Origin: Planctomycetota bacterium
GTDB lineage: Bacteria > Planctomycetota > Phycisphaerae > UBA1845
Length of the DNA stretch: 41,831 nucleotides
Direction of reading: 5' to 3'
Assembly: GCA_030622435.1 (NCBI GenBank)
Contig: JAUXGE010000001.1
Span: 1-41,831 of the forward strand
Positions 1 to 20,143 of the stretch are shown here, in pieces. Each line of letters opens with the position of its first letter. Within the stretch, counting starts at the first letter, position 1. Made by a program: the position numbers and the translations under genes. The notes beneath the pieces were generated by a model. The model saw nothing but the letters and a program-made list of their open reading frames with translations, had not been told where the DNA came from and made no database searches.

Positions 1-1796
1 CCGTCGATTCCCAACTGCTGACACTCGCAACGCGAAGCCGTGTCGGAAAGGCAAACATTAGGGCTCGCGCTAATGTTACAGCACCGACCCGTCGGGAAGA
101 TAACATCAGCGCCGACAACACCGAGCAGCGGTAAGAACTCGCTGTTGTTCGGCGGCCCTTGAACCATGTTCGAGTACATGTTCGCCAGCCCCAGTCCGAC
201 GTGGAAGTCGCCGGCCGGGCAATCGCACATCGTCTTTAGCGTCAGCGAACCCAGGTACAAGTCGACGTGCGGACTGGGAATCGCTTCACTCAGCAGCCCC
301 GCGCCATAGCGGTAGTCCAGGGTGCTCATGTCCACGTCACCCCAGTAAATCATACCCGGACCAGAAAAAATCCACCTCCAACCCTGGTTGTCCGCGAAGC
401 CGGCGGCACATACGTCCGGCGGAAGACCGGGGTGGTTACATCCACCCCTCAGCGCGCCGTCACCGATCGGACCCTGCGCAGCGATGCAGTCTTCGTCGTC
501 CGCACAAGCGGGTTGCCAAGGCGTCAGTGTGCACTTCAACCCGGCGCTGTAACCGGAGGCATCAAGAGTGGCCTGAAATGACTTCACGGTGATACCCTCA
601 TAATCCGGATCCCAGTCCGAAACATAAATCTCGAACCACAAGTGGCGTTCGGAACCAGGATAGGACTGATCGATCGTGACCGAATTGCCGTCGATCGTCA
701 CGTCGACGGGAGAGGCCCCAGGCGGGATGGCATCGACGCTCATCGGAACCACCTGCATGATGGTGTCCGTCTGAGCAAACGCCTGACCCACGAAGTTGTT
801 GTAGTAAACCGGGGCATCTGGCCCATAGGCAAAGTAGTAATCCGCAGCACCGTCATTACAGAACGTCGGGTGCGGGGCTACACCTGCATTGCAGCCACCA
901 CCGGCCGGAGTCCAGTTGTTCTGATCCGCATCCGTGTGGTCGCAAGCCACCGTCCCGGGGGCGCCGCCCACGTCGTCACAGCAGAAGCCGGCCGTGTAGC
1001 CGGAAGCCGTGGCACAGTAACCGTGCTGATCGCATCCCCAGATCGCACCCAAGAAATCGCCGGCACCAACCTGCGGCTTTGTCATGGCACCGCCAGTGAT
1101 GAAGCCGTCGGACATACGCCATGCCCAACGGCAGACGTCGCCAGGCATAACCACACCAAAGACCTCAGTGCAGTTGACCGGAACCTTCGCGGCGAAGATA
1201 CACTTGAGGTCATAGACAACGGCCTCAGGCAGATCGGTCCACGTGCAACTCGTCCCGGCAATCGGTGCGGGTACCGCCGCGCAGACGGTGCTCTGAGCAC
1301 CGAGCGGATCGCCGTCCCACAGCTCGATCGTGAAACCGCCAGTGCCGTTGAAGGCACCGAAGTTGTAGGTACTGACGTAAACCCTCGCCATCCACGATGA
1401 CAGATCGGTCCCCGGCACAAAGCCGTTACCGAAAATCATCTGCGACCATTGCATCGTGCCGGGCTCGTTGTCGTGAAAGTAGCCGTACCCGGAGTCGAGC
1501 ATCTGTGAAAAGACCACAGCCTCGGCACCGGCACCGGTCGCAGTCACACCACGAGCAAAGGCCTCGTCGTTAATGACCTCGATCACAATATTCTGGGGGT
1601 GGCTAGGCACCTCAGCCTCAGCGTTGGCCTCCCCCCGGGGGTTGATCAACGACGGGGTCTCAACATGGACCACGCGTGCTCTTCCCTGCAACACCTCGGG
1701 GAGTGTGTAGCCATCGTCACCCTGTGGAGCAGCTGATGCAGCAACGCAAAAAGCGAGCACACCAACAGCAGCCACACCAACAAGAATCTTTTTCAT
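1..1796 (-). CDS. secreted Cys-containing surface protein, partial (C-terminus lies beyond the left edge)
   Basis: It is absent from the ORF track because it has no stop in the window. My own minus-strand translation from the ATG at 1796 stays open to position 1 (about 598 codons): MKKILVGVAAVGVLAFCVAASAAPQGDDGY... An AAGGAGG Shine-Dalgarno lies at 1805-1811. The N-terminus looks like a signal peptide. It carries CC-x-G-x-C type motifs like the neighbouring giant gene. The plus-strand ORF 642-1400 is antisense to it. Confidence 0.75.
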   Translation of the reverse strand, partial: MKKILVGVAAVGVLAFCVAASAAPQGDDGYTLPEVLQGRARVVHVETPSLINPRGEANAEAEVPSHPQNIVIEVINDEAFARGVTATGAGAEAVVFSQMLDSGYGYFHDNEPGTMQWSQMIFGNGFVPGTDLSSWMARVYVSTYNFGAFNGTGGFTIELWDGDPLGAQSTVCAAVPAPIAGTSCTWTDLPEAVVYDLKCIFAAKVPVNCTEVFGVVMPGDVCRWAWRMSDGFITGGAMTKPQVGAGDFLGAIWGCDQHGYCATASGYTAGFCCDDVGGAPGTVACDHTDADQNNWTPAGGGCNAGVAPHPTFCNDGAADYYFAYGPDAPVYYNNFVGQAFAQTDTIMQVVPMSVDAIPPGASPVDVTIDGNSVTIDQSYPGSERHLWFEIYVSDWDPDYEGITVKSFQATLDASGYSAGLKCTLTPWQPACADDEDCIAAQGPIGDGALRGGCNHPGLPPDVCAAGFADNQGWRWIFSGPGMIYWGDVDMSTLDYRYGAGLLSEAIPSPHVDLYLGSLTLKTMCDCPAGDFHVGLGLANMYSNMVQGPPNNSEFLPLLGVVGADVIFPTGRCCNISASPNVCLSDTASRCECQQLGID

Positions 1797-8029: not shown

Positions 8030-8637
8030 TCTTTTTTGGCTTTCTTTCAAAACGCAACGCGCATCTTGAGTAACACGAGCAATCACGGGTAATGGGTCTG
8101 GCCGTTCTCGCCCCGCGCACAAGGCTACACGGCGTTTGTACCGGTCGGAGGACAGACGAAAGCTACGTGCTCACCTGATCGGGTGCAGTGGCGCACGATT
8201 TTCCAAGGCGCGCCAACCCAATATGAAATCGCCCTTCAAAAAAACAGGTCTGGTCACCTCTATGTCGTGCGTCCGATTCCAATCGAAGACTCGACTGTCG
8301 TGTCCCGATCTCGCACGAGGAGTCGATGCCCATGCTGGACATCCGGAAAAGATTCGCAAGAAAAGTTCCCGATAACCCATGTTTCTCTCCGAATGGTCGG
8401 CAGCCGAACGGTCGGTAGCCTTTGCAGTCCGCCGATGGCCAGCCCATGAAGCAGATCCGAGTTCCACGCCGGTGTATCGATAACCGCGTTCGTACCGAGT
8501 TCCCGGCAAATCTCTCATTCTTCGATGTGACAAACAGGCTCGGTCCGTTACCTGGCCTCGAATAGTCCCTCATGCAGGGTTCGCCGGAGCATGCACGCAG
8601 GAAGGGGGTACACGTTAGCTTCTGACTCGTGGGATTC

Positions 8638-8665
8638 TTGACGTGGCTTCTTCGATCGCTACGGT
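8638..8665 (+). promoter_or_regulatory. possible promoter for tRNA-Ala (TTGACG-16 nt-TACGGT)
   Basis: The hexamers are at 8638-8643 and 8660-8665. The tRNA begins at 8682. The -10 is weak. Confidence 0.25.
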
Positions 8666-8681
8666 GATGCGTCGTACTACC

Positions 8682-8755
<74 letters not shown>

Positions 8756-9727: not shown

Positions 9728-9818
9728 GGAGAGGTGGGTGAGTGGCTGAAACCAACGGTTTGCTAAACCGTCAGACGGGTTTACGCCTGTCTCGGGGGTT
9801 CGAATCCCCCCCTCTCCG
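9728..9818 (+). tRNA. tRNA-Ser (anticodon GCU), class II with long variable arm
   Basis: Acceptor GGAGAGG/CCTCTCC, anticodon arm ACGGT-TTGCTAA-ACCGT, long variable arm CAGACGGGTTTACGCCTGTCTC, T arm GGGGG-TTCGAAT-CCCCC, discriminator G. Confidence 0.95.
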
Positions 9819-10284: not shown

Positions 10285-10665
10285 ATGAAAAGACCGCTCC
10301 AAATCATAGGCCGGCGGCTGTGGGGGCGACCGGTCGAAACGGTCGCCCTGATTCTAATCGTGTGGGCTTTGGCACCCTCTGCCGCCCGCGGAGATTACGT
10401 CGAGGTTTTCCAGAGTTGGCAGGCGACGACTGCGGATACCTGAGAGACGAAGGACCTGACCTGTGCCCCGTCCAGCGTGCCGGCCAATGCCGTGGTGGAA
10501 ATCGCCGTGAGAAACATCCGCCACAACAGCGGGCGATGTGGTGTCGTGCGGGCCGTCGGCTCCAGCCTCAGCAGGCGGATCGGCACCTATAAAGCCGAGC
10601 GAGGCCGCAGTGTCTCGGCGCAGTTGACAGCAAGGAGGGCAGTCAGGCATGAGGATCTCAGGTAG
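10285..10665 (+). pseudogene. degenerate N-terminal paralog fragment of the downstream HAF-repeat protein (signal peptide plus first module) with an in-frame TGA
   Basis: MKRPLQIIGRRLWGRPVETVALILIVWALAPSAARG DYVEVFQSWQATTADT*ETKDLTCAPSSVPANAVVEIAVRNIRHNSGRCGVVRAVGSSLSRRI... parallels QYVESFESWSATSADTWQTKDLSGAPFSVPGSVVVEVAIRNVSTSESRFGGVRAVGSSLERRI in the intact gene. TGA at 10441-10443 replaces the Trp codon (TGG at 10931-10933 in the paralog). Confidence 0.6.
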
Positions 10666-13600
10666 GAACACACTTCGTTTGTACGCACGTCGCGCGCGAA
10701 CCGCACGCCATACGGCGTTGACTCTCAACGCACACCGAGGGTCTTTGTTGCACGGGACGATGCACGGCGGAGGCTCTCATGCAATCGATAACTCGAAGGC
10801 TCGCCGGCGAGCGTGTCGATGGAGGGTTCTCTCCGTTTTGGCTACCCTGGCCGTCGTCGGATTGCCTGAATTGGCCAGTGCTCAATACGTCGAGAGCTTC
10901 GAATCCTGGTCCGCAACATCCGCCGACACCTGGCAGACCAAGGACCTGAGTGGCGCGCCGTTCAGCGTGCCGGGCAGTGTGGTTGTCGAGGTCGCAATCC
11001 GGAACGTCAGCACCAGTGAGTCACGATTCGGCGGCGTTCGCGCGGTGGGCTCCAGTCTTGAGCGGCGCATCGATCTGCACGAAGCCGCGGGAGGCGGCAC
11101 CGACGTGCTTGTCATGCACGTTCAAACTGACGCGAGTTCACAAATACAGCATTACGCCGACAATACCGCCGATGTCGACTTCGTCCTGCTCGGCTATTGG
11201 GAGTGCGGAACTTATGTGGAGCTCTTTGGCACTTTTAGTGCCGCATCATCTTGGACGGACGAGGACCTGAACGCGTACGGCCTGGGCCCTGGCGACATCG
11301 CCGAAATCGTCATGACCAACGAGGCAGATTCGCAGGCGTATTATGCGGGCACACGAACCAATGGCTCCAGTCTCGACAGACGCGTCGTCCTGCAATCGAT
11401 CGACGACGGTGTGGACACCATCACCATGTTCGTCCAGGCCGACAACAGCGGGAGTGCCACGATTGAGGCTTACGCAGGTCACGTGATCAAGGTCGATTTC
11501 TACGTCGTCGGGTATTGGAGCCCGGCACCGGGAGTCTATACCGAGACGTTCACCGACATCGACAGCCCGTCCGCCGACGCCACCTGGGAAGATGAGGATC
11601 TCACGGCCTCGGGGGCAAGCGACGGGAGTGTAGTGGAGATTCTCTTCGCCAACAACATAACGACCCAGGAGAATGAACTGGGCATTCGTGCGAACGGGTC
11701 GTCCGTCGCCCGGCTGTTCGATCTGCGGGAGGAGAACGACGGCTCGGGTGGTGGAGACTTTGGACGTATGCACGCGTTGTCTGACGCGTCCGCGGTCATA
11801 GAGCTCCGGCATGAGGACGTCAGCGACGCACACAGCTTTCGCATGATCGGACACTGGAGCATCGGAGCCATTCTCGACGATCAGGTCACGGGCCAGGAGA
11901 CAGACGCATTCACGGAGCAGAGCGGGGAAACGGATGCCGAGCTCTTTGCCTTTGTACTCACCCCGTGCTCTGGAACTCTCACTATAACCGAGATCGTCTT
12001 CCGCCTTACGGACATCGCGGGTTTGACGGACCCCGACTGGGCCGACGTCGAGCTTGTCGTAGATGACAACTACAACGGCGACATCGGCACCGGAGAGACC
12101 ACGACCGTCGGTGGCGCAGGTTCCGTGAACACTGCGGCCGGGACCATCACATTCTCGACGTCCTTTGATATCACCACAGGTACTTCTTACATCCTCCGCG
12201 CCGATTTCGCGTCATTGTCCCTCGGAGATCAGGTCACTATCGGCCTGGATAAGAACGACATAACCGGAAGCGGACCGGTCACGGGGTCCGCCACTTCGGT
12301 GACGCACTTAAAGGGGTGCTATACGGCAACCTTCGAAGCGTGGACGGCCAGCTCCGCGGACACGTGGCAAACGCAGGACCTGAGCGGCCCTCCGTACAAT
12401 GTGCGAGCCAACGCCGTGGTCGAAGTGGCTATAATGAACGGCAACACTTCCAATCCCCGCTGGGGCGGCGTTCGTGCGGTTGGATCCAGCCTGGACCGGC
12501 GAGTGCAGCTTCAGGAGGCGGAAGGCGGGGGAGAAGACGTGTTGGTCATGCACGTCCAGGCCAACGCGAGCTCGCAGATTCAGCATTACTCCGACCTAAC
12601 GACGGACGTTGACTTCGTTCTGCTCGGCATCTGGACCTGTGGGACGTATGTGGAGCTCTTCGACACGTTCACGGCCGGCGCCAGCACATCGTGGCAAGAC
12701 CGCGACCTCTGCAGCTACGGTGTCGGCCCCGAGCATGTAGCCGAGATCATCATGACCAACGGCGACATCGGAAACGAATGGGAGGCCGGTGTGCGGACGA
12801 ATGGGTCGAGCCTCGAACGAAGACTCGACCTCCACGAAGCCGAGAACGGAGGGGTCGATACGGCCACGATGTTCGTGAAGACCGACGCCACGGCCGGCGC
12901 GACGATCGAGCTGTATGCCCAGAGCGACACAAACGTCGATTTCTACCTGGCCGGTTACTGGAGCGTCGCACCCCTTGCTTACAGTGAACTCTTTGCGGAC
13001 ATAGGAAGCCCCTCGATCGACGCCACATGGGAAGACATCGACTTGACGAGCAGCGGCGTGACCAACACCGCCGTGGTGGAGCTTGTACTCGCCAACGAAG
13101 CCCTCGTAGTAAACGTCAGCATGGGCGCTCGCGCGAACGGATCCTCGCTTGGGCGGCTCCTGGATATCCACGAGGCCCAAGGTGGAGGCAGCGACCTCGG
13201 ACATATGCACGTTCAGTCGGACGCAACGGCCACGATAGAATTCTACCACCAGGACGTGAGTGATGCGCATACGTTCCACCTGATTGGGTATTGGACAAAC
13301 TGCGACTCGTCAATTTCTTACAGCATCGCGGACCTGGGGGCCGTGACTCCTGCCGAGTCCAGCCTGGGCTACTCCATTAACGCATCAGGCGACGTGGCCG
13401 GTTACGACGAGGACGCCGGCGGTGACTCCGGTGCCTGGCTGTCGGAGTGCGGCTCATTTACCTCGCTTGGCACATTCGCCGGTGGTAGCGTCGCCGAAGC
13501 ACTGGGCATCAACAGCTCCGGAGAAGTAGTTGGCTGGTCCGACAACGCCGCCGGAAACCGCAAGGCGTTTTTCTACGACGGCAGCCTGACCGACCTGGAT

Positions 13601-15004
13601 ACACTTACCGACCGCACTGACAGCGAGGCCACCGCCGTCAACGCCAGCAGCGAAGTAGCTGGCACTGCCTACAACTCCGGCACACCTCCGACCGATCGGC
13701 TGGCCTTCATCTATCTTCCTGCACCCGCCTACACACTCGGCGCCGGGATCAACAGCCTCGGCACCCTTGGCGGCTACCATAGCGTGGCCATGGACATCAA
13801 CGATTCCGGCCAGGTCGTCGGTGGGTCGGAAAACGCCAGCGAGTACATGCGGCCCTTCCGTTGGCAGAACGGTTCGATGACCGATCTGGGCACGTTGGGA
13901 GGTGAGATAGGTTCTGTCACGCATCGGGCGAACGCCATAAACAGCTCGGGCAACATAGTCGGCACATCCTATACGGCCAGCGGGGATGCGCACGCCTTCC
14001 TCTGGGATGGCGGTATGACGGATCTTGGCGTTCTGACTGGTGGGGACACCAGCTGGGCACTAGGTATCAACGACAGCGATGAAGTTGTGGGCACCTCGAA
14101 TGTCACCGGAGGGGCTTTCCACGCCTTCATCTGGGACAGTACCAACGGGATTCGCAACCTGAACGACCTTGTAGATGCTGGGGAAGGCTGGACTCTGACC
14201 AGGGCGACGGGTATCAACGACGACGGTAGTATCACTGGTTGGGGGACGAACTCGAGCAGCGACGTACGTGCGTTCCTTCTGACGCCGTCATGTAGCGCAG
14301 GTGGGGGGGCAGCAGCCGCTGCCGCCATGATTCTCCTCGCCACAGGGGCGGGCACCACGGACACAGATGGGGTGTTGAACGAGCTCGTTGTCAGCGACGA
14401 GGGGGCACCGCTCGCTCAGATCGTTGTGGCCGACGCTGAACCTGACAAGCACTTCGCACTGACTGTAACGGCTCCAGGACCGGAATCGACCGGGGCTCCG
14501 GGTCCCGGCTTGGGTACCCTGGCGGGTTTCAACGATGGTGTCGCGCTCGACCACACATTGACGGTCGAGAGCCCGGCACTACAGGGGAGCCTCAGCCTCA
14601 CTGTCAGCATGACCTTTCAAGAGTATGAGCTGGACGATTGGAGTATTTCGCCGGCGGATGTCGAACTTCACGTTCTCGACACGACTCAGAGTCCATCACC
14701 GGGCACATGGATACCGGCTGGTGTGAACATCGGTCAGTCCGAGCCCACGGGCATCGTGGGTGAGTCCGGATTCGTGGTGTACACGGATGACAGTGTGGAC
14801 TTCTGGGCGGTGCGTGACGAGCCGGGCGTCTTCGCCGTCGGCGCCAAGTCTTCTACCCAAGACGATGCCGACGACAGCAATGTGACACCCGCGTCACCAA
14901 CGTTTTCACCTGTTTGCGGGCTCGGCATGATTCCTTGCGCTCTGGCCGCCATGGTCACGTTGATCTCGGCAAGAACGCGGCGGCGTCGGTCCCGCTCCCA
15001 TTAA
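10649..15004 (+). CDS. 1451-aa secreted protein: six copies of an unassigned ~135-aa module, HAF-family extracellular repeats, and a PEP-CTERM-like hydrophobic/Arg-rich tail
   Basis: ORF from the track. A strong AAGGAGGG SD lies at 10632-10639, 9 nt before the ATG at 10649. An alternative start at 10760 sits closer to the signal peptide RRRACRWRVLSVLATLAVVGLPELASA. HAF-type repeats (AHAFLWDGGMTDLGVLTGG...GINDSDEVVG) lie at roughly 13318-14290. The C-terminal tail is FSPVCGLGMIPCALAAMVTLISARTRRRRSRSH. Confidence 0.9.
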   Translation: MRISGRNTLRLYARRARTARHTALTLNAHRGSLLHGTMHGGGSHAIDNSKARRRACRWRVLSVLATLAVVGLPELASAQYVESFESWSATSADTWQTKDLSGAPFSVPGSVVVEVAIRNVSTSESRFGGVRAVGSSLERRIDLHEAAGGGTDVLVMHVQTDASSQIQHYADNTADVDFVLLGYWECGTYVELFGTFSAASSWTDEDLNAYGLGPGDIAEIVMTNEADSQAYYAGTRTNGSSLDRRVVLQSIDDGVDTITMFVQADNSGSATIEAYAGHVIKVDFYVVGYWSPAPGVYTETFTDIDSPSADATWEDEDLTASGASDGSVVEILFANNITTQENELGIRANGSSVARLFDLREENDGSGGGDFGRMHALSDASAVIELRHEDVSDAHSFRMIGHWSIGAILDDQVTGQETDAFTEQSGETDAELFAFVLTPCSGTLTITEIVFRLTDIAGLTDPDWADVELVVDDNYNGDIGTGETTTVGGAGSVNTAAGTITFSTSFDITTGTSYILRADFASLSLGDQVTIGLDKNDITGSGPVTGSATSVTHLKGCYTATFEAWTASSADTWQTQDLSGPPYNVRANAVVEVAIMNGNTSNPRWGGVRAVGSSLDRRVQLQEAEGGGEDVLVMHVQANASSQIQHYSDLTTDVDFVLLGIWTCGTYVELFDTFTAGASTSWQDRDLCSYGVGPEHVAEIIMTNGDIGNEWEAGVRTNGSSLERRLDLHEAENGGVDTATMFVKTDATAGATIELYAQSDTNVDFYLAGYWSVAPLAYSELFADIGSPSIDATWEDIDLTSSGVTNTAVVELVLANEALVVNVSMGARANGSSLGRLLDIHEAQGGGSDLGHMHVQSDATATIEFYHQDVSDAHTFHLIGYWTNCDSSISYSIADLGAVTPAESSLGYSINASGDVAGYDEDAGGDSGAWLSECGSFTSLGTFAGGSVAEALGINSSGEVVGWSDNAAGNRKAFFYDGSLTDLDTLTDRTDSEATAVNASSEVAGTAYNSGTPPTDRLAFIYLPAPAYTLGAGINSLGTLGGYHSVAMDINDSGQVVGGSENASEYMRPFRWQNGSMTDLGTLGGEIGSVTHRANAINSSGNIVGTSYTASGDAHAFLWDGGMTDLGVLTGGDTSWALGINDSDEVVGTSNVTGGAFHAFIWDSTNGIRNLNDLVDAGEGWTLTRATGINDDGSITGWGTNSSSDVRAFLLTPSCSAGGGAAAAAAMILLATGAGTTDTDGVLNELVVSDEGAPLAQIVVADAEPDKHFALTVTAPGPESTGAPGPGLGTLAGFNDGVALDHTLTVESPALQGSLSLTVSMTFQEYELDDWSISPADVELHVLDTTQSPSPGTWIPAGVNIGQSEPTGIVGESGFVVYTDDSVDFWAVRDEPGVFAVGAKSSTQDDADDSNVTPASPTFSPVCGLGMIPCALAAMVTLISARTRRRRSRSH
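10883..13300 (+). repeat. intragenic array: 3 + 3 copies of a ~135-aa module separated by an insert domain
   Basis: The recurrent signature is W(Q/E)(T/D)xDL ... VVE(V/I)..xN ... G(V/I)R(A/T)(V/N)GSSLxRRxxLxEAxGGGxD..xMHVQ.D....I(E/Q).Y......VDF.L.GYW. The second triplet starts at 12317 (CYTATFEAWTASSADTWQTQDL). Confidence 0.75.
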
Positions 15005-15070: not shown

Positions 15071-15403
15071 CTACTGGCAGGCTCCTAGCTGGCAGTCGTT
15101 GGTGCAGCAATCAGAATCGGCGAAGCAAAGACCGCCTGATTCGACGCATACCTCATTCGTACACACACCGCCGCTACAGACCATGTCATCACAGCACAGC
15201 TCTTGTCCCGGACACACATGACCGGCCGGGTAGCAGCTGTGGTTGCTGCCCGCAGCGAGCGCTTCTTGTGGATTGAGCGCAAGCACGGCGGGGGTGACAT
15301 AGGCAAGTTTGACCGCGCCGCGTAAGAAGTTGCGACGGCTGGGTGGGACGTTGGGCTTCGCGCCCCTCGAGGGAGAAATACACTTCGTCCCACTTGTCAA
15401 CAA
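15071..15403 (-). other. C-terminal module of the kinase ORF: twin-arginine-like leader plus tandem knottin-like Cys units (possible separate cistron from in-frame TTG 15403/15400)
   Basis: ...PPSRRNFLRGAVKLAYVTPAVLALNPQEALA / AGSNHSCYPAGHVCPGQELCCDDMVCSGGVCTNEVCVESGGLCFADSDCCTNDCQLGACQ*. The Cys spacing is C-6-C-5-CC-4-C-4-C followed by C-6-C-5-CC-3-C-4-C. There is no stop between the kinase domain and this module, and no in-frame ATG. Confidence 0.5.
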
Positions 15404-16324
15404 TCCGGCATTGTGCGCGGGTTCCGGTGCACGACACAGTGAAGATTCGATAAGGTCACAGGTGTCCTCGATCGCGCCTGCTTCAAGACGGAAGCACTGC
15501 GCTTGACTCACAGCGTCACCCAGGACCGACAGTAGCTGATCGCTGAGCACGTTTCGGTTGAAAGTGCACTCGGCCAGGTCGAGTAGCGCACGGGCACGAG
15601 AGATCGGATACAGATGAGGCCGGTCGGTTCCCGTGTACTTGGGGAAAACGATGTATCGGATCGGGGTCGGATCGGGGGCCATGTACGGCTCGGCAACATG
15701 GGGATTGATATACCCCACCCGTCCCTTGAATCCTTTAACGTAATAACGGTGCCCAGTGAAAGACAGTCCTAGACGTCGGACGACCTCAAAGGAACCGGCC
15801 TTGATACACAAGGCCTTGGGAAACGGGTGTAAGCGCAACGTTTTGCGGTCAATCAGAGCGAATTCATCGGATAAATATGTCCATCCGCGCGCCAACAGCC
15901 CGGCTGCCAGGGTGGATTTCCCGGATCCCGGGGCAGCGGCGAAAACGAACCCGCGCCCCAAGTGCGCCATCGTACCTGCATGTACCTGTAGGTACTCAGG
16001 ATGGTTTGCGATTACTCGCCAGTTGATCCCCCACTCTACAAACGGGAGCACCTCCCGGCGTGAACGTTCCCTGCCGATTTCCTCGCCGTCACCGTAAATG
16101 CGGTAGCGCCGGCCGCGCAGCCTCGAGCGTCCTGTGTCGCGGATCACCATTCGGATGGCCTGCTCCGGCACCGGAGACGGTCGGTCATACCCGTGATAAA
16201 GAACTCTCAAGTCGTCAAGGAGCTTCTGATCATCGCTCTGCACCGTGACGTTGATGGATCCAATCTTGCAGTGGAGATACTGCTCAGTGGAGGCGCCGGC
16301 GGTTTGAGCGACACTGTCGGTCAT
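15071..16324 (-). CDS. HPr-kinase-related P-loop kinase (first ~300 aa), continuous in frame with a Tat-like leader and a 12-Cys peptide module
   Basis: ORF from the track (417 aa). The Walker A region reads GFVFAAAPGSGKSTLAAGLLARGWTYLSDEFALID, which is HprK-like. Its start overlaps the PqqD-like stop by ATGA (16321-16324). Confidence 0.85.
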   Translation of the reverse strand: MTDSVAQTAGASTEQYLHCKIGSINVTVQSDDQKLLDDLRVLYHGYDRPSPVPEQAIRMVIRDTGRSRLRGRRYRIYGDGEEIGRERSRREVLPFVEWGINWRVIANHPEYLQVHAGTMAHLGRGFVFAAAPGSGKSTLAAGLLARGWTYLSDEFALIDRKTLRLHPFPKALCIKAGSFEVVRRLGLSFTGHRYYVKGFKGRVGYINPHVAEPYMAPDPTPIRYIVFPKYTGTDRPHLYPISRARALLDLAECTFNRNVLSDQLLSVLGDAVSQAQCFRLEAGAIEDTCDLIESSLCRAPEPAHNAGLLTSGTKCISPSRGAKPNVPPSRRNFLRGAVKLAYVTPAVLALNPQEALAAGSNHSCYPAGHVCPGQELCCDDMVCSGGVCTNEVCVESGGLCFADSDCCTNDCQLGACQ

Positions 16325-16671
16325 GACTCACGTCCAAGGTCGAGCAATCGCGAGTGGGAGAACATGGCAACAATATGCTCAACGTGAGCGAGCGCATCTT
16401 CTGGTGCCACGTCGTAGGTTTCGGACAACGACTCAGCGACTTGGCGCATCGTTGTCCGGCCGTCACAGTTGCGAAATACAGCCAAAGCTGTCTGGTTCAG
16501 CAGATACATCCCGTGCGTTCTTGTATCGAAAATAACCGCCTCACCGTCGATCTCATAATCGTGAAGTTCGCTCCGCCGAGCGGGGATGGCGATCTCCGTA
16601 TCTGTCAACGGTGGCGGAGTTGCCAGCGCCTGCCCACCTGTTCCGTCTTCTCGCTGCATCAACAGGGACAT
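16321..16671 (-). CDS. PqqD-family peptide chaperone / RiPP recognition element (116 aa)
   Basis: The central region YEIDGEAVIFDTRTHGMYLLNQTALAVFRNCDGRTTMRQVAESLSETYDVAPEDALAHVEHIVAMF has the typical PqqD/RRE pattern. A GGAGG SD lies 6 nt upstream. It is translationally coupled to the kinase. Confidence 0.85.
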   Translation of the reverse strand: MSLLMQREDGTGGQALATPPPLTDTEIAIPARRSELHDYEIDGEAVIFDTRTHGMYLLNQTALAVFRNCDGRTTMRQVAESLSETYDVAPEDALAHVEHIVAMFSHSRLLDLGRES

Positions 16672-16717: not shown

Positions 16718-16939
16718 TCATGCTGACTGATCTCCATTCGTCCTCGAGCGTGGTGTGCGTTGCACAGACCACTCCGCGATGACATCCTCGGGCGGACCTT
16801 CCTCGATAACAACGCCCTGAATCACGGGTGGAACAAAAGGCAGCTTGTCACGGAAATCGCCATGCGCGGGTTTGCCTTCGTTCAGAAAACGTTCGATCTC
16901 TCGAAAATCGTCATTCGATTTGGGTTGATTATCAGTCAT
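16718..16939 (-). CDS. small acidic hypothetical protein (73 aa), candidate precursor or partner peptide of the RRE-kinase pair
   Basis: ORF from the track: MTDNQPKSNDDFREIERFLNEGKPAHGDFRDKLPFVPPVIQGVVIEEGPPEDVIAEWSVQRTPRSRTNGDQSA. It is co-directional with, and 46 nt upstream of, the PqqD-like gene. GGAG lies about 13 nt upstream. I recognise no homology. Confidence 0.5.
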   Translation of the reverse strand: MTDNQPKSNDDFREIERFLNEGKPAHGDFRDKLPFVPPVIQGVVIEEGPPEDVIAEWSVQRTPRSRTNGDQSA

Positions 16940-17681
16940 ACCGATCTCGAATCTCCATCACCAGGCACGGCAAGAGCGTCGAAAAATGCAACTACCATTC
17001 GATCCTCCAGCCTGCCCCAATAAAAACACCTTAACACGCGTTGTTTGCAAACGGTTATCACGGACGGACTCGGTGCAGGCCGGGCTCATAATAATAGGCC
17101 CAAGCCGGCATCTTGGCAGGACTTCCATGCCGAGGTGCCCCTCCGTAGCGTGCGGTCCCCCGTGAGATGATATATCGGGTTCTCCCTCACGCCTCATCCC
17201 CAAAAAAAGCAAGCTCTGTCGTCCGATACTCGTTGGCCGGAGGCCATGTTTCGCCGGATGCGCGTCCGTTCCTGACGGTCGCTGTTATGATTGATAGCGC
17301 AGCATATTATTAGGATCACTTTTATAGGCCCCCGGGCGCGGGCATCACGGTGACCCACGCGCAAGACAAATGAGATTGCAGCAATAAGACCTGGTGTTAT
17401 CCGGGCCTGGATAGTAACGGCTAGCTTTGTACGGTCAGCGTTCAAGCAATGTCACCGCACCGAGCACTGGTCCAATATTCCCGCTCGGCCCCTGGGGCGA
17501 AGGGGGATAAGTGAGGTTCGATCCTGTGCATGTCTTCTGCAACCTGGGCGCGTGGTGGTCCATCACGTTTCAGAGCAAGCTCTATTTCCCTGCAGCGGTC
17601 GGAATTCTCTTTTGATCAGCGATTGAGCAGACTCCGGTGCGACACGAAATCCGAGGATGCTCCAGAGCAAGCTCTATCCAA

Positions 17682-17737
17682 GTGTAGCGTCCGATTGCGA
17701 GTTTGACCCATCAGCAAATCGGTTTCCGACGCTACAC
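17682..17737 (-). other. long interrupted hairpin (GTGTAGCGTC...GACGCTACAC, with inner CCGATT/AATCGG)
   Basis: The 10-bp outer arms at 17682-17691 and 17728-17737 are perfect complements, and a 6-bp inner pair also forms. It lies about 70 nt downstream of the dockerin-remnant stop, so it may be a relic terminator. Confidence 0.35.
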
Positions 17738-17809
17738 GTGCATTGAGTGCTCAATAGTGCCAGAGTGTGGCATCAGATAATCACCTCCAGGCGCGGGGTG
17801 ATCAGGGTT

Positions 17810-18022
17810 TCAATCACCTGCGAGCGTTCGCTGGAAGCCGGCGAAGTCTTTGAGGTCGATGTCGCCTGTAACGCTCGCGTCGAAGTCGAAGGCTTCGCAG
17901 CCTGCGTCGAACGGGCCGTTATCGGGGCCCGCGGGATCGCGGTACTGCACGATACCAGCAGCACCTGTCCGTGCCCCTTGACGTTGCAGCGTGACGTAAA
18001 GGCAGGTAGCCGGGGTGGAGAT
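17810..18022 (-). pseudogene. remnant of a dockerin-type C-terminal domain (70 open codons, no start)
   Basis: The minus frame ending at TGA 17810-17812 reads ...GIVQYRDPAGPDNGPFDAGCEAFDFDASVTGDIDLKDFAGFQRTLAGD*. This resembles CDLDKDGDADMTDLRTFQESFTGE* at the end of the 1306-aa protein. The frame is closed upstream by TAG at 18023-18025. The ORF-track entry 17773-18285 is in a different frame. Confidence 0.45.
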
Positions 18023-18092
18023 CTACCAGCTCCCTCGGCTACGAAGCAGGCAGGCCACCCGGGCCTTTGGTTTTGGCGGGAAATGGTTGTTG

Positions 18093-18232
18093 CAGTCACA
18101 CTTTCAGATGGCTTCGTTTGGTATCCTTTTTTCATCGTATCCAGTCCCTCAAGGTGGAAGGGATATGTTGGGATCGGTTGCGGCGTTTTGTTGGAGATGA
18201 CACTGGGCATTGTGGAAGTCCTTTGTTGAGAG
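18093..18232. repeat. intergenic repeat, copy 1 (core plus tail)
   Basis: The core is CAGTCACACTTTCAGATGGCTTCGTTTGGTATCCTTTTTTCATCG. The tail TTGGAGATGACACTGGGCATTGTGGAAGTCCTTTGTTGAGAGG matches the tail of copy 3. Confidence 0.7.
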
Positions 18233-18294
18233 GAAGTTGCGCGCTGTGCGATCCTTCCCTTCGGGATAGGCGAAGGACCTACCAATCGAGCTTA

Positions 18295-18345
18295 CAGTCA
18301 AACTTTCAGATGGCTTCGTTTCGTATCTTTGTTTCATTGTGGTTG
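18295..18345. repeat. intergenic repeat, copy 2 (core only)
   Basis: CAGTCAAACTTTCAGATGGCTTCGTTTCGTATCTTTGTTTCATTGTGG. It shares TCCGTCGAG after the core with copy 3. Confidence 0.7.
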
Positions 18346-18493
18346 GTCCGTCGAGTCGAACGTCGGGGCTGCTGACCACCGCTGTAAACATCTTTGGAAA
18401 GGGGGTATCTCCTTGACTCCACCAGCTGCAGGCACGCCTCCCGATACGAACGTCAGACGCAATGATCCCATTCCCGGCTGGGCATTTGTTATC

Positions 18494-18571
18494 CGCAGAT
18501 TGCGCAGATGACACAGATTGTGCTGCTCGAGTCGCCTTGCTGCTGCGTTTCTGCGCAATCTGCGCAATCTG
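18494..18571. repeat. palindromic array of the 9-mer CAGATTG(C/T)G: two forward, two tandem reverse
   Basis: Forward copies lie at 18496-18504 and 18514-18522. Reverse copies (cgcaatctg) lie at 18554-18562 and 18563-18571. 18494-18508 is perfectly complementary to 18550-18564 (15 bp), and an alternative register shifted by 9 nt also pairs. Confidence 0.7.
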
Positions 18572-18665
18572 TGGATTCTCTCTCGGGACGTTGGACGAGT
18601 ACTGGAGCAAAGCAGATAGCCCCTTAAGCATGATGTCCCCCGATTTCGATGGGGGCGGGTCGTTC

Positions 18666-18839
18666 CAGTCAGACTTTCAGATGGGTTCGTTTCGTATATT
18701 CATTTTTCATTGTGGCTCGTCCGTCGAGGTCGGGAGGGGGCGTTGGGGCGGATTTGGCGCGGCCTTGGGGTGGCGGCAGTTGGCATCGCATTGGATTTTT
18801 GAGACGACTTTGGGCATGGTTGAAGTTCCTTTGCTATGG
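18666..18839. repeat. intergenic repeat, copy 3 (core plus tail)
   Basis: The core is CAGTCAGACTTTCAGATGGGTTCGTTTCGTATATTCATTTTTCATTGTGG. The tail is TTTGAGACGACTTTGGGCATGGTTGAAGTTCCTTTGCTATGG. Confidence 0.7.
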
Positions 18840-19804
18840 TGGGGCGTTTTCCCCCACCCATTCCGGCGATGTGACGAGAAGGCCTTCCGCTTCGTTTGGG
18901 CGCCGGAATGAATGGGGCACCAGCGGTGCGCGCGGCGTCGGGCTCTACAGTAATAACTTCACGGGCGCTCGCTCTGGAAGGTGTGTTTGAGCGATCAGGA
19001 GGAATGGTGAATGCGGAAGGCGGAGGGATGAAGGAAGAAGGAAGGGGAATTACGAAAGGGTTTTTGATGCGAGGGGCGGCTCGAGTACGGCAGGCAACGG
19101 GTGGTTGGTTCGCATGCCCACCAGCGGAGGCAATTATCTCATGAAAGAGGGCGACCCGGCTGATGTGCTGCCCAAGAGCGGCGGCAGTAGAACGATTGGG
19201 AAACGGATTCGACTCCCCCGCCGTTGAAGCGGGCTGGCCACCGGTCGCTAAAGCAAGTCGGCGCTTCGCCCGGGCATGCCACCTGACGACATGGGACCCG
19301 CTGTCCGGCTTTGCCAGTGTGCCCCCCGCCCGCCCGCGCGAGGGCTACACAGGTAATCTAACCCTCTCTCCCCGCGTCGCGCCCCAACACCCAATTTCGC
19401 GGGAATTCGTACGTGGTTGGCACGTGGTCACTGATTTTCGCATCTCCAGCGATTTTGGCCCCCCGCCCTACCCGGCTCCCAGCGTACCTGGAAGCTGGTC
19501 TGGGCGCTGATCCTTCCCATCGAGCGAAATGAAGCCCTCGCGCGCGCGCAAGGTCCGATATTCCGTCTATCCTCCGGCTCCGCATATCTTCCAGAGGGTA
19601 TCACGCACCAAACCGGGGGGCTTGGCTCGGTTTTGGGCCTTCTACGGGGGGCCGTTGGCTTCCTCAACCGCCACTCTCACGCACGTATACGCACGTTGGC
19701 CCGTGCGCCCCTTAACGTCGGGTGCTGCAGCCCACGCTTCGGCTACTCCAACGAAGCTGCATTTGAGGCGACAGCTCGGCGGATTGGCATTCGGAAGAGG
19801 CGCA

Positions 19805-20071
19805 TCAGGGGTAGACGTAGTTGATGATGGCGACGACGCACCTCATGCAATCTTCCTGGAGGTAGAGCGGTTCTTCGCCACAGCCCTCGTAAGCTATTCC
19901 TAGAGCGTCAAGCTTGGAAACCCCCGCGTCTCTTGCGGCATCGAACACCGTAATGCCCTCGACCAGATTGTCGCCCTCCGAGTACCCGGCGCATGCGCTA
20001 GTCACGTTGTTCCCCAGGGCCCCGCACCCCGCTATAAGCAATAACCCGACCAGAACCATCAGTAGTTTCAT
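19805..20071 (-). CDS. small lipoprotein (88 aa)
   Basis: MKLLMVLVGLLLIAGCGALG carries a lipobox (LIAGC). AGGAGAA lies 6 nt upstream of the ATG at 20071. The longer ORF-track start at 20176 reads through the conserved leader and is unlikely. Confidence 0.7.
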   Translation of the reverse strand: MKLLMVLVGLLLIAGCGALGNNVTSACAGYSEGDNLVEGITVFDAARDAGVSKLDALGIAYEGCGEEPLYLQEDCMRCVVAIINYVYP

Positions 20072-20143
20072 CTCGATTCTCCTTCGCTTTCTTTCTGACT
20101 TGTCCTGACGTATCACTTGCATCTGTCCCGATGGTCCAACGTG
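20072..20143 (-). promoter_or_regulatory. conserved 72-nt 5' leader/promoter element, copy 1 (twin at 21643-21714)
   Basis: The minus strand reads CACGTTGGACCATCGGGACAGATGCAAGTGATACGTCAGGACAAGTCAGAAAGAAAGCGAAGGAGAATCGAG-ATG. It differs from the sequence upstream of the 324-aa lipoprotein gene at only a handful of positions. Confidence 0.5.

What the first reader, a model, noticed from the sequence alone, without database searches (positions are those of the whole stretch)
15071..15403. Twin-arginine-like leader and tandem knottin-like 12-Cys peptide encoded in frame at the 3' end of the kinase ORF
After the kinase domain (...AIEDTCDLIESSL) the frame continues without a stop. It first encodes a near-consensus Tat motif with an h-region and an AxA-like site (PPSRRNFLRGAVKLAYVTPAVLALNPQEALA). 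A 60-aa peptide with 12 Cys follows. Its two units have spacing C-6-C-5-CC-4-C-4-C and C-6-C-5-CC-3-C-4-C, which fits the inhibitor-cystine-knot spacing pattern twice. A signal peptide located ~320 residues into a cytoplasmic kinase cannot work as such. Three explanations seem possible: (a) a separate small cistron initiated at in-frame TTG 15403/15400, (b) a precursor peptide genuinely fused to its modifying enzyme and released by proteolysis, or (c) a lost stop codon or assembly error. A tandem double-knottin with a Tat leader would be unusual for bacteria under any of these.
Basis: partly seen in the sequence, partly recalled or inferred. Interest (0 to 1): 0.75.

Follow-up and report, generated by a model that had tools for sequence, protein, structure and literature searches.

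The report
Kinase fused to its exported peptide substrate
The tail of this kinase gene is a real, conserved peptide-precursor module: a recognition and export leader followed by a serine site and two knottin-like cysteine domains, fused to the enzyme predicted to phosphorylate it, in an undescribed Planctomycetota relative of a peptide family first reported in 2026.

Summary
ORF 15071-16324 (-) encodes an HprK-like kinase (residues 1-296), a 32-aa linker, the leader S329-RRNFLRGAVKLAYVTPAVLALNPQEALA-357, and a 60-aa core with 12 Cys.

It is not an assembly error or a lost stop. Thirty-nine distinct database homologues carry the same fusion, with no in-frame stop in 450 linker codons and a linker fixed at about 35 aa.

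In 80 related Planctomycetota loci the same leader module usually sits on a free-standing small gene upstream of PqqD and the kinase. In some lineages it is fused to the C-terminus of the nucleotidyltransferase or of PqqD instead.

The leader matches the register of LppA, the precursor of the linear polyphosphorylated peptides (LPP; Bacillota, 2026): Y-16, P-13, V-11, then core A1-x-S3-N4, where S3 is the phosphorylated residue. It adds an invariant twin-arginine motif and an AxA site. The LPP peptidase and exporter genes are absent.

Free-standing Cys-rich cores co-occur with VKOR-DsbA genes (23/28 versus 0/33), which implies export.

Best reading: a precursor fused to its enzyme, phosphorylated in cis with PqqD bound to the leader, then exported and cleaved. 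Phosphorylation, Tat use and cleavage are inferred, not shown.

The parts
16718..16939 (-). 73-aa ORF upstream of PqqD. It carries a second leader-like motif (KLPFVPPVI, i.e. [Y/F]xxPx[V/I]) followed by LPxDVxAEW, with no RR motif and no Cys core.
   Evidence: Conserved in L082 and L085. An HMM built from it hits only loci where the precursor is fused to an enzyme (WIN, L082, L001, L003, L004, L011, L018, L013). It sits where free-standing precursors sit in other loci. In L003 it forms one 175-aa ORF with PqqD. Its role is unknown.
16321..16671 (-). PqqD-family RiPP recognition element (RRE), 116 aa. Its stop overlaps the kinase start codon (ATGA).
   Evidence: PF05402 E 3.9e-13. Best NCBIfam hit is the lasso PqqD chaperone NF033530 (1.1e-8); TIGR04353 scores 27.3 bits, below its cut-off of 35. 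Weak PDB matches to PqqD and the lasso RRE TfuB1. A PqqD ORF precedes the kinase in essentially all 80 related loci.
15437..16324 (-). HprK-like (ScmC/LppK-type) P-loop kinase domain, residues 1-296.
   Evidence: TIGR04352 E 4.8e-52, 176.8 bits against a cut-off of 200. Precomputed Pfam PF27840 (ScmC). P-loop G133-x-G-K-S-T138 and D153/E154 are invariant in 67 homologues. AF2 pLDDT >90 over residues ~12-300. Foldseek finds the PEPCK/HprK fold.
15341..15436 (-). Linker, residues 297-328. It is not conserved in sequence and contains the two in-frame TTG codons (15398-15403).
   Evidence: Linker length is conserved: median 35 aa, and 32-39 aa in 34 of 39 fused homologues. There are 0 stops in the ORF frame against 7 and 11 in the other frames over 450 codons in 13 loci. 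AF2 pLDDT is 31-63. No start codon is conserved.
15254..15340 (-). Leader, residues 329-357: S-R330-R331-N-F-L-R-G-A-V-K-L-A-Y342(-16)-V-T-P345(-13)-A-V347(-11)-L-A-L-N-P-Q-E-A355(-3)-L-A357(-1). It is both twin-arginine-signal-like and RRE-ligand-like.
   Evidence: RR and Pro are invariant in 54 relatives. [ST] at -1 of RR in 70/79, F at +3 in 51/79, aliphatic at +4 in 79/79. Y/F-16 in 125/133, V/I/L-11 in 129/133, A-3 in 91/133, A-1 in 106/133. The register is the same as the LppA leader Y-16/P-13/V-11 (PMC13381572).
15236..15253 (-). Start of the core, A358-G-S360-N-H-S363 (A1-G2-S3-N4-H5-S6). S3 is the predicted phospho-acceptor.
   Evidence: LppA core begins A1-Q2-S3-N4-W5-K6, and LppK polyphosphorylates S3 (PMC13381572). 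In this family S is at +3 in 69/133 (at +2 in 37) and at +6 in 65/133. Phosphorylation here is inferred.
15161..15235 (-). Cys unit 1, residues 364-388: C-x6-C-x5-CC-x4-C-x4-C.
   Evidence: Read from the sequence. AF2 pLDDT 71-75. The same unit occurs in free-standing relatives L064, L068, L074, P0121-P0123 and P0141.
15077..15148 (-). Cys unit 2, residues 393-416: C-x6-C-x5-CC-x3-C-x4-C.
   Evidence: Cys columns are invariant in 39 homologues. AF2 pLDDT 85-89. The top Foldseek PDB hits are all inhibitor-cystine-knot toxins (1hvw TMt 0.83, rmsd 0.8 A; 5fzv prob 0.98), but E-values are 0.4-10.

Best explanation
The 3' end of the kinase gene encodes a complete precursor module of an LPP-like peptide-modification system, covalently fused to the C-terminus of its own HprK-like kinase through a flexible tether of about 35 residues.

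Proposed mechanism:
1. The PqqD-type RRE encoded just upstream binds the Y342-x-x-P345-x-V347 stretch of the leader.
2. The kinase domain phosphorylates Ser360, which is Ser3 of the core in the motif A-G-S-N, in cis or within an oligomer.
3. Once PqqD releases the leader, the same stretch acts as an internal export signal with N-in/C-out topology. It has the twin-arginine motif S-R-R-N-F-L, an 11-13-residue hydrophobic region and A-L-A before the cut site.
4. The 60-residue core crosses the cytoplasmic membrane while the kinase stays inside. Housekeeping signal peptidase I cuts after A357. The two C-C-CC-C-C units are oxidised in the periplasm into two knottin-like domains.

Basis for each step. 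Shown by sequence comparison: the fusion is real and under selection; the module is homologous to free-standing precursors of the same system; the leader and core register matches LppA; Cys-rich cores co-occur with VKOR-DsbA genes. Inferred: phosphorylation of S360, RRE binding, use of Tat rather than Sec, cleavage at AxA, and disulfide connectivity. The biological role of the product is unknown.
For: The fusion is conserved and selected.
- 39 of the top 120 kinase homologues carry it.
- 33 single-knot fusions form one clean clade in a kinase-domain tree, and the 6 double-knot fusions form a second group.
- Linker: 0 in-frame stops against 7 and 11 off-frame in 450 codons. Linker length is 32-39 aa in 34 of 39 despite no sequence conservation.

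The module is the system's precursor.
- An HMM of the module finds it in 70 of 81 loci, always on the PqqD-kinase strand, and mostly as a free-standing small ORF just upstream of PqqD.
- Free-standing double-knot proteins are 54-70% identical to the window's tail.
- The module is also fused to the C-terminus of NTP_transf_5 (L013, L083, L084, P0194) and of PqqD (L042, L055, P0181). All three system proteins have therefore been joined to it independently.
- Kinase-fused loci contain no other RR-leader ORF.

Link to LPP (PMC13381572).
- The LPP core set is an HprK-like kinase, a discrete RRE and an NTP transferase. The precursor has Y-16, P-13, V-11 and core A-Q-S3-N, with S3 polyphosphorylated.
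- The window has Y-16, P-13, V-11 and core A-G-S3-N.
- LppA still bound its RRE and was cleaved with MBP fused to its N-terminus.

Export.
- RR is invariant and the S/T-R-R-x-F-L consensus holds. A-x-A sits at -3/-1.
- The minimal operon in a complete genome (L040) has only NTP_transf_5, precursor, PqqD and kinase, with no dedicated peptidase or exporter.
- A VKOR-DsbA gene lies in 23 of 28 loci with non-kinase-fused Cys-rich precursors and in 0 of 33 loci with Cys-free precursors (Fisher p 2.6e-12).
- An internal Tat signal has precedent (PMC5449189).

Knottin-like fold.
- AF2 mean pLDDT is 74, and 85-89 for unit 2. The Foldseek top hits are exclusively cystine-knot toxins.
Against: - No biochemical data exist for any member. 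Phosphorylation, RRE binding, export route and cleavage are all inferred.
- Kinase-fused Cys-rich loci have no VKOR-DsbA within +-5 kb (0 of 9). The window has neither VKOR nor NTP_transf_5 anywhere in its 41.8 kb. The strongest export argument is therefore borrowed from relatives.
- The Tat profile PF10518 scores only 12.5 bits against a cut-off of 22.7.
- Two basic residues lie between RRxFL and the hydrophobic stretch, and that stretch is short (11-13 aa).
- The RR motif could instead be a contact for the kinase, the RRE or the nucleotidyltransferase.
- Close relatives express the same core as a free-standing gene (P0121-P0123, L081, L087, L088). An internal TTG start in the window cannot be excluded in a phylum that makes little use of Shine-Dalgarno sites.
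- AF2 gives low confidence for the leader and linker.
- Foldseek E-values for the knot are not significant, and disulfide connectivity could not be examined.
- A kinase consumed once per exported peptide is costly, which makes the uncleaved-anchor alternative attractive.
Confidence: 0.6

Rival explanations
1. In-frame internal initiation. The leader-core peptide is translated separately from an internal start such as TTG 15403/15400. The read-through from the kinase is incidental, so functionally this is an ordinary free-standing precursor overlapping the kinase 3' end.
For: Close relatives encode the same double-knot core as free-standing genes with their own ATG (P0121-P0123). Free-standing precursors have N-regions of median 28 aa, similar to the linker. 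Two in-frame TTGs lie 21-22 codons before RR.
Against: No start codon is conserved in the linker. L006, L008 and L018 have no ATG/GTG/TTG in the last 17-25 codons before RR, and no Shine-Dalgarno-like motif precedes the window's TTGs. If read-through were incidental, frameshifts and stops should be tolerated. Yet all 33 members of the single-knot clade and all 6 double-knot members stay fused, with 0 in-frame stops where ~9 are expected and a fixed tether length. Independent fusions to NTP_transf_5 and PqqD argue that the covalent linkage itself is selected.
Confidence: 0.12
2. Membrane-anchored kinase. The hydrophobic stretch is an uncleaved signal-anchor, so the protein is a type II single-pass protein with a cytoplasmic kinase and a small periplasmic double-knot ectodomain that acts as a sensor or tether. 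It would not be a released peptide.
For: The topology obeys the positive-inside rule, with RR and K before the hydrophobic stretch. The architecture resembles receptor-type bacterial Ser/Thr kinases (own knowledge). It avoids sacrificing one kinase per peptide. Cleavage has not been shown.
Against: The hydrophobic stretch is only 11-13 residues, contains Pro, and is bounded by K and N/R/Q. This is too short for a stable transmembrane helix. A-x-A at -3/-1 is strongly conserved. The homologous free-standing versions are 62-64-aa peptides with only 5-8 residues after AxA, which makes no sense as ectodomains. In the related LPP system the leader is removed at the homologous position by a signal-peptidase-I-like enzyme.
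Confidence: 0.13
3. The leader is only an RRE/enzyme recognition sequence and the twin arginines are not an export signal. The modified peptide stays cytoplasmic, or leaves by an unlinked transporter or by lysis.
For: The YxxPxV stretch lies inside the putative hydrophobic region and is a documented RRE ligand in LPP and lasso systems. PF10518 is below threshold. No tat genes are in the window.
Against: VKOR-DsbA, whose active sites face the periplasm, is tightly linked to Cys-rich cores only (23/28 against 0/33). The S/T-R-R-x-F-L motif, a hydrophobic stretch, a basic or polar c-region and AxA together reproduce a full signal-peptide architecture that LppA leaders lack. The dedicated peptidase and exporter of LPP clusters are missing.
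Confidence: 0.12
4. Artefact or decay: mis-assembly, a lost stop codon or a pseudogenised junction joining an ordinary kinase to unrelated sequence.
For: This is a single metagenome-derived contig, and read-level support was not available.
Against: The same fusion occurs in 39 distinct protein clusters from many samples and assemblers. Examples include a 74%-identical relative with identical gene order (L082), L085 and L086, and 8 GTDB species genomes.
Confidence: 0.01

Closest known systems
Linear polyphosphorylated peptides (LPP; LppA/K/B/S/D/N) of Bacillota, Popov et al., Nat Commun 2026 (PMC13381572)
   Same: An HprK-like kinase, a discrete PqqD-type RRE and (in relatives of the window) an NTP_transf_5 nucleotidyltransferase, with no lasso cyclase. 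The precursor leader has Y-16-x-x-P-13-x-V-11. The cleavage site is of signal-peptidase-I type at the same distance. The core starts A-x-S3-N, and S3 is the phosphorylated residue in LppA.
   Different: The phylum differs: LPPs were reported as restricted to Bacillota, and this system is in Planctomycetota. There is no SipW-like peptidase LppS and no MsbA-like exporter LppD. Instead the leader carries an invariant twin-arginine motif, a hydrophobic stretch and AxA. Cores are Cys-rich knottin-like domains (with VKOR-DsbA in many loci) or 5-8-residue Ser-terminated tails. In this window the precursor is fused to the kinase and no nucleotidyltransferase is present. The kinase and PqqD score below the NCBIfam cut-offs of the nearest curated families.
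Tailoring module of paeninodin/pseudomycoidin-type lasso peptides (HPr-kinase homologue, nucleotidyltransferase, B1 RRE)
   Same: The same enzyme trio. The kinase acts on the linear precursor and phosphorylates a Ser, which is the C-terminal Ser in paeninodin. The nucleotidyltransferase adds hexose to the phosphate (review PMC8498205). Cys-free relatives here end in Ser in 36 of 47 cases.
   Different: There is no lasso cyclase (C) or B2 protease in the loci inspected. The product cannot be a lasso peptide.
HPr-rel-A system of NCBIfam/TIGRFAMs (TIGR04352 HprK-related kinase A, TIGR04353 PqqD family peptide chaperone)
   Same: These are the best-scoring curated families for both proteins.
   Different: Both scores are below the curated cut-offs (176.8 against 200; 27.3 against 35). 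No curated family exists for the precursor, and database copies are named 'hypothetical protein'.
Borosins (OphMA-type), with the core peptide encoded at the C-terminus of its own modifying enzyme
   Same: An enzyme-substrate fusion with the core at the extreme C-terminus, modified by the enzyme to which it is attached and released by proteolysis.
   Different: The enzyme is unrelated (an alpha-N-methyltransferase, mostly fungal). There is no RRE, no export signal and no Cys-rich core. This is an analogy only.
Twin-arginine signal peptides, their signal-binding proofreading chaperones (TorD/DmsD/NapD; own knowledge) and the internal Tat signal of the actinobacterial Rieske protein Sco2149 (PMC5449189)
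   Same: The S/T-R-R-x-F-L motif, a moderately hydrophobic stretch and AxA. A small cytoplasmic protein is predicted to bind the signal before export. The signal is internal rather than N-terminal, as in Sco2149.
   Different: The signal follows a soluble 330-residue enzyme rather than transmembrane helices. The cargo has no known cofactor. The Pfam/TIGR Tat models do not reach threshold. Tat dependence is untested.
Inhibitor-cystine-knot (knottin) toxins, including the double-knot toxin DkTx
   Same: C-C-CC-C-C spacing, twice in tandem. The AF2 model superposes on omega-atracotoxin and U3-scytotoxin at 0.4-0.8 A over 25 residues.
   Different: There is no significant sequence homology (Pfam E 0.03-0.2). 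This is probably convergent. The origin is bacterial, connectivity is unverified, and the domain is part of a kinase-linked precursor.

Membership tests
LPP RiPP family (PMC13381572) | HprK-like kinase encoded with a discrete RRE (PqqD-like) | tested here: met
   Kinase TIGR04352 E 4.8e-52. PqqD PF05402 E 3.9e-13. The genes overlap by 4 nt.
LPP RiPP family (PMC13381572) | Precursor leader with the YxxPxV(L) RRE-binding motif at -16..-10 relative to the cleavage site | tested here: met
   Y342(-16), P345(-13), V347(-11), L348(-10) relative to the A355-L-A357 site. The family of 133 sequences keeps this register.
LPP RiPP family (PMC13381572) | Ser3 of the core is (poly)phosphorylated by the kinase | not testable with these tools
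   The sequence has A1-G2-S3-N4, against LppA A1-Q2-S3-N4. Phosphorylation itself needs mass spectrometry.
LPP RiPP family (PMC13381572) | SipW-like signal peptidase I (LppS) in the cluster | tested here: not met
   The operon here is the 73-aa ORF, PqqD and the kinase fusion. Pfam scans of the other window ORFs found no signal peptidase. None is present in the 4-gene operon of L040.
LPP RiPP family (PMC13381572) | MsbA-like ABC exporter (LppD) in the cluster | tested here: not met
   No ABC transporter was found among the window ORFs scanned or in L040, L074 and L001.
LPP RiPP family (PMC13381572) | NTP transferase (LppN, NTP_transf_5) in the cluster | tested here: not met
   Absent from the whole 41.8-kb window. 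Present in 65 of the 80 related loci and in the close relative L085.
LPP RiPP family (PMC13381572) | Free-standing precursor gene | tested here: not met
   Here the precursor is fused in frame to the kinase. It is free-standing in 62 related ORFs.
HPr-rel-A system (NCBIfam equivalogs TIGR04352/TIGR04353) | Scores above the curated cut-offs | tested here: not met
   176.8 bits against 200, and 27.3 bits against 35. The proteins are related but outside the curated equivalogs.
Twin-arginine (Tat) signal peptide | S/T-R-R-x-F-L-K motif followed by a hydrophobic stretch and an A-x-A site | tested here: met
   S-R-R-N-F-L-R, then LAYVTPAVLAL, then A-L-A. RR is invariant, [ST] at -1 in 70/79, and F/aliphatic at +3/+4.
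Twin-arginine (Tat) signal peptide | Profile match (PF10518/TIGR01409) above threshold | tested here: not met
   PF10518 scores 12.5 bits against 22.7, E 0.15. There is no TIGR01409 hit.
Twin-arginine (Tat) signal peptide | N-terminal position with a free N-terminus | tested here: not met
   RR is at residues 330-331 of 417. In free-standing relatives the N-region has median 28 aa. An internal Tat signal is documented only for Sco2149-type proteins.
Twin-arginine (Tat) signal peptide | Export depends on TatABC and on the RR pair | not testable with these tools
   This needs genetics or fractionation.
Inhibitor cystine knot (knottin) | Six Cys with C-C-CC-C-C spacing within the accepted loop lengths | tested here: met
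   The two units are 6-5-0-4-4 and 6-5-0-3-4. The Cys columns are invariant in homologues.
Inhibitor cystine knot (knottin) | Knotted I-IV, II-V, III-VI disulfide connectivity | not testable with these tools
   Model coordinates and disulfide geometry are not returned by the tools. This needs disulfide mapping or NMR.
Inhibitor cystine knot (knottin) | Fold similarity to solved knottins | tested here: inconclusive
   All top Foldseek hits are knottin toxins (TMt up to 0.83, rmsd 0.4-0.8 A over 25 residues, prob 0.94-0.98), but E-values are 0.4-10. Model pLDDT is 74.
Lasso peptide | Macrolactam synthetase (C) and B2 leader protease | tested here: not met
   Neither is in the window nor in L040, L001 or L074.

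The most novel reading that the evidence does not exclude
A RiPP leader peptide that doubles as a twin-arginine export signal. The PqqD-type RRE would act like a Tat proofreading chaperone that masks the signal until the kinase has phosphorylated Ser3. The signal would remain functional when placed internally, behind a whole folded enzyme (kinase, nucleotidyltransferase or PqqD). These fusion proteins would then be single-use carriers that modify their own C-terminal cargo and hand it to the general export and signal-peptidase machinery. This would replace the dedicated peptidase and ABC exporter of the Bacillota LPP system and deliver phosphorylated bacterial knottins to the periplasm.
Probability: 0.35. 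Interest if true: 0.85.

Novelty: new variant of a known kind. Interest (0 to 1): 0.72.

Why it matters
If correct, this extends the LPP class (a kinase, RRE and nucleotidyltransferase acting on a linear peptide), first described in 2026 and thought restricted to Bacillota, to marine and freshwater Planctomycetota. There the precursors have gone unannotated, appearing as 'hypothetical protein' or as an unexplained tail on a kinase.

It offers three testable ideas.
1. A RiPP leader can be merged with a general-secretion (probably Tat) signal, which dispenses with a dedicated protease and exporter.
2. Precursors can be fused repeatedly to any of their three processing proteins. This is a natural Rosetta-stone experiment that identifies the interaction partners and shows the leader works when internal.
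3. Bacteria make tandem knottin-like disulfide-rich domains as cargo of such a system, paired with VKOR-DsbA oxidases.

The fixed ~35-residue tether gives a simple handle for probing how far the substrate Ser must reach. The fusion proteins are convenient one-polypeptide substrates for biochemical study of HprK-like peptide kinases.

Tried and rejected
- Pfam and NCBIfam scans of the tail and of free-standing relatives gave only sub-threshold hits: TAT_signal 12.5 bits, conotoxin/omega-toxin families at E 0.03-1, and no NCBIfam precursor family.
- The search for homologous proteins with the 100-aa tail alone or with the 54-sequence leader alignment returned few hits (3 and 20) because of its word index. 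The exhaustive representative search gave 80 clusters, mostly 70-130-aa proteins.
- Literature searches for 'HprK-related kinase' and for 'knottin' with 'Planctomycet' found nothing relevant.
- The internal start codon hypothesis was tested on 10 fused loci. No position or Shine-Dalgarno motif is conserved. It is not supported but not excluded.
- Assembly error or lost stop was rejected on conservation.
- A lasso-peptide cluster was rejected because no cyclase or B2 protease is present.
- A transmembrane anchor was considered and judged less likely. The hydrophobic stretch is 11-13 aa with Pro, AxA is conserved, and free-standing homologues have 5-8-residue tails.
- Rfam on the whole window found only two tRNAs.
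- The full-length AF2 model could not be used to ask whether Ser360 reaches the P-loop, because coordinates are not returned and the leader and linker have low confidence.
- I could not check for tat genes in the source genome, because only this contig is available.
Full report
**1. What is in the window.**
ORF 15071..16324 on the minus strand is 417 codons long with no internal stop.
- Residues 18-293 match NCBIfam TIGR04352, 'HprK-related kinase A' (E 4.8e-52; 176.8 bits, below the equivalog cut-off of 200). The precomputed Pfam label on homologues is PF27840 (ScmC).
- The stop of the upstream ORF 16321..16671 overlaps the kinase ATG. That ORF is a PqqD-family protein (PF05402, E 3.9e-13). 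Its best NCBIfam hit is a lasso-peptide PqqD chaperone.
There is a 32-residue linker (297-328) and the leader S329-RRNFLRGAVKLAYVTPAVLALNPQEALA-357. A 60-residue core follows: AGSNHS plus two C-C-CC-C-C units with 12 Cys in all.
- The two in-frame TTG codons are at 15403-15398.
- The Cys pattern occurs twice in the window, both times here, against 0.03 per dinucleotide shuffle.

**2. The fusion is real and selected.**
- A search of 5.8 billion proteins with the full ORF returned 259 homologues. Of the best 120, 39 carry the same C-terminal extension and 81 are kinase-only proteins of about 295-300 aa.
- In a neighbour-joining tree of the kinase domain, 33 fusions with a single Cys unit form one clade with no unfused member. 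The six double-unit fusions, including the window, form a second group.
- In 13 fused loci for which I hold DNA, the non-conserved linker has 0 stops in the ORF frame over 450 codons, against 7 and 11 in the other two frames.
- The linker length is nearly fixed: median 35 residues, and 32-39 in 34 of 39.
- The closest relative (74% identity, L082) has the same gene order: 73-aa ORF, PqqD, fused kinase.
- An assembly error or accidental loss of a stop is therefore excluded.

**3. The tail is the precursor of the system.**
I fetched 80 loci encoding kinase relatives from GTDB species genomes. All are Planctomycetota, mostly Phycisphaerae. A profile built from the tail finds the same module in 70 of 81 sources, always on the PqqD-kinase strand. 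There are three layouts.
- Fused to the kinase.
- A free-standing small ORF immediately upstream of PqqD.
- A free-standing ORF about 2 kb upstream, with a VKOR-DsbA fusion gene in between. In L074 the order is precursor, VKOR-DsbA, PqqD, kinase, NTP_transf_5.

Further points:
- In the complete genome behind L040 the operon is just NTP_transf_5, a 64-aa precursor, PqqD and the kinase, flanked by unrelated genes.
- About half of the free-standing precursors have no Cys and only 5-8 residues after the A-x-A site. Of these, 36 of 47 end in Ser.
- Free-standing double-knot proteins 54-70% identical to the window's tail exist (P0121-P0123). Three of them sit convergent to a homologue of the window's 1451-aa neighbour, so they are syntenic with the window.
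- The module is also fused to the C-terminus of the NTP_transf_5(+SET) protein (L013, L083, L084, P0194) and of PqqD (L042, L055, P0181).
- Repeated independent fusion to each of the three system proteins, always with the module at the C-terminus, argues strongly that these proteins act on it. It also shows that the leader tolerates a large N-terminal extension.

**4. Relation to known systems.**
- In lasso clusters an HPr-kinase homologue phosphorylates the C-terminal Ser of the linear precursor, and a nucleotidyltransferase glycosylates that phosphate (PMC8498205).
- A 2026 paper (PMC13381572) defines 'linear polyphosphorylated peptides' (LPP) in Bacillota. The core genes are an HprK-like kinase LppK, a discrete RRE LppB, an NTP transferase LppN, a SipW-like signal peptidase LppS and an MsbA-like exporter LppD.
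- The LppA leader carries Y-16, P-13, V-11, L-10 and F-3/E-2/T-1. The core begins A1-Q2-S3-N4, and S3 is polyphosphorylated. The authors state that LPPs are restricted to Bacillota.
- The window's leader has Y342 at -16, P345 at -13, V347 at -11 and L348 at -10 relative to A355-L-A357. The core begins A1-G2-S3-N4.
- Over 133 family members the register holds: Y/F-16 in 125, V/I/L-11 in 129, A-3 in 91, A-1 in 106, S+3 in 69 and S+2 in 37.
- The module is therefore an LPP-type precursor, and Ser360 is the predicted phospho-acceptor.
- The Planctomycetota loci lack LppS and LppD. They add the invariant twin arginines within S/T-R-R-x-F-L upstream of the RRE motif. The cleavage site is a classical A-x-A.

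**5. Export.**
- The leader reproduces a full signal-peptide architecture: a positively charged RR motif, an 11-13-residue hydrophobic stretch, a polar or basic c-region and A-x-A.
- A VKOR-DsbA gene, whose redox sites face the periplasm, is present in 23 of 28 loci with a non-kinase-fused Cys-rich precursor. It is present in none of 33 loci with a Cys-free precursor (Fisher p 2.6e-12). Cys-rich cores are therefore expected to reach the periplasm.
- With no dedicated exporter or peptidase in the minimal operon, the simplest inference is that the general machinery is used: Tat, given the invariant RR, or otherwise Sec, together with signal peptidase I.
- An internal signal is topologically acceptable because the N-terminal domain stays inside. 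An internal Tat signal is documented for Sco2149 (PMC5449189).
- The RRE-binding stretch lies inside the hydrophobic region, so PqqD binding and export should be mutually exclusive. This suggests an order of modification first and export second. This step is inference.
- Caveats: PF10518 is sub-threshold. Kinase-fused loci have no VKOR nearby. The window has neither VKOR nor NTP_transf_5.

**6. The Cys-rich core.**
- AF2 with 39 homologues gives mean pLDDT 74, and 85-89 for unit 2.
- Foldseek against the PDB returns only cystine-knot toxins at the top: omega-atracotoxin 1hvw (TMt 0.83, rmsd 0.8 A), U3-scytotoxin 5fzv (prob 0.98), conotoxin, ProTx-I, and more weakly the double-knot toxin. E-values are 0.4-10, as expected for 25-residue domains.
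- 'Knottin-like' is therefore reasonable for the fold. Connectivity is untested, and there is no significant sequence homology to animal toxin families.
- The full-length model is confident for the kinase (pLDDT >90, PEPCK/HprK fold) and poor for the linker and leader.

**7. Rivals.**
- Internal initiation is not supported. No start is conserved, and the frame and tether length are maintained. It remains possible because close relatives are free-standing.
- An uncleaved membrane anchor is possible. It fits poorly with the short Pro-containing hydrophobic stretch, the conserved AxA and the tiny tails of free-standing homologues.
- A purely cytoplasmic role for the leader conflicts with the VKOR-DsbA linkage.

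**8. Verdict.**
The system is a new variant of a known kind: an LPP-like kinase/RRE system in Planctomycetota with a signal-peptide-type leader, knottin-like or Ser-tail cores, and recurrent enzyme-precursor fusions. The window shows the kinase-fused, double-knot form that lacks the nucleotidyltransferase. The chemistry, the export route and the biological function remain to be shown.

Noticed in passing
window 16718-16939 (-); also L082 2112-2333, L085 1093-1320, L003 4490-5017: The 73-aa ORF upstream of PqqD carries a second [Y/F]xxPx[V/I] leader-like motif (KLPFVPPVI) followed by a conserved LPxDVxAEW. It has no RR motif and no Cys. An HMM of it hits only loci where the true precursor is fused to an enzyme. 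It occupies the slot of the free-standing precursor, and in L003 it is the N-terminus of a 175-aa PqqD protein. P0146 has this motif and the RR-leader plus double knot in one 181-aa protein. It could be a relic of the ancestral precursor, a second RRE ligand or a regulator.
   Followed up: partly
L013 57-1988 (-), L083 1838-3610, L084 1-855; L042 2669-3343, L055 2604-3497; P0194, P0181: The same leader-core module is fused to the C-terminus of an NTP_transf_5+SET-domain protein in three loci and to the C-terminus of a PqqD domain in two loci. All three system proteins have therefore been fused to the precursor in different lineages.
   Followed up: yes
L074 3073-4464 and 29 other loci: A VKOR-DsbA fusion gene lies inside the operon in 23 of 28 loci with free-standing Cys-rich precursors and in none of 33 loci with Cys-free precursors. 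Seven further loci have VKOR, but no precursor was detected within the fetched range.
   Followed up: yes
L012, L014, L022, L027, L028, L035, L040 and others; P0126-P0140: Cys-free precursors of 62-80 aa end 5-8 residues after the AxA site, and 36 of 47 end in Ser (for example ...AFGSGGSGVS). This recalls the C-terminal-Ser specificity of lasso-associated HPr-kinase homologues. P0131 is recorded on 84 contigs, including Tara samples.
   Followed up: partly
window 10649-15004 (+); L081 502-2106, L087 521-1000, L088 ~811-981 (reverse strand): The convergent 1451-aa protein ends in a conserved C-terminal signature, C-G-L-G-M-I-P, then a hydrophobic helix, then R/K-T-R-R-R-R. This looks like a sorting or anchor signal. 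Homologues of it lie convergent to free-standing double-knot precursors in three other contigs, so the pairing of the knottin gene with this large protein is syntenic.
   Followed up: partly
window 18090-18153, 18292-18355, 18663-18726: Three copies of a ~64-nt direct repeat (61-80% identity; core TTTCAGATGG(C/G)TTCGTTT) lie in a ~3-kb stretch (about 17000-20100) that has only short overlapping ORFs. Rfam has no match there.
   Followed up: no
window 8682-8755 (+) and 9728-9818 (+): Two tRNA genes (Rfam RF00005, 65.7 and 58.1 bits). The ORF 8163-8747 (-) listed mechanically overlaps the first and is probably not a gene.
   Followed up: no
P0170, P0175, P0187, P0189, P0190 (representative search): Larger proteins (330-884 aa) match the Cys units 4-6 times. 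Only P0175 was read: it carries a short four-Cys repeat (GGRCYSDRxCxGGVCRSGxC) six times. Arrays of Cys-rich modules therefore exist outside this system.
   Followed up: no
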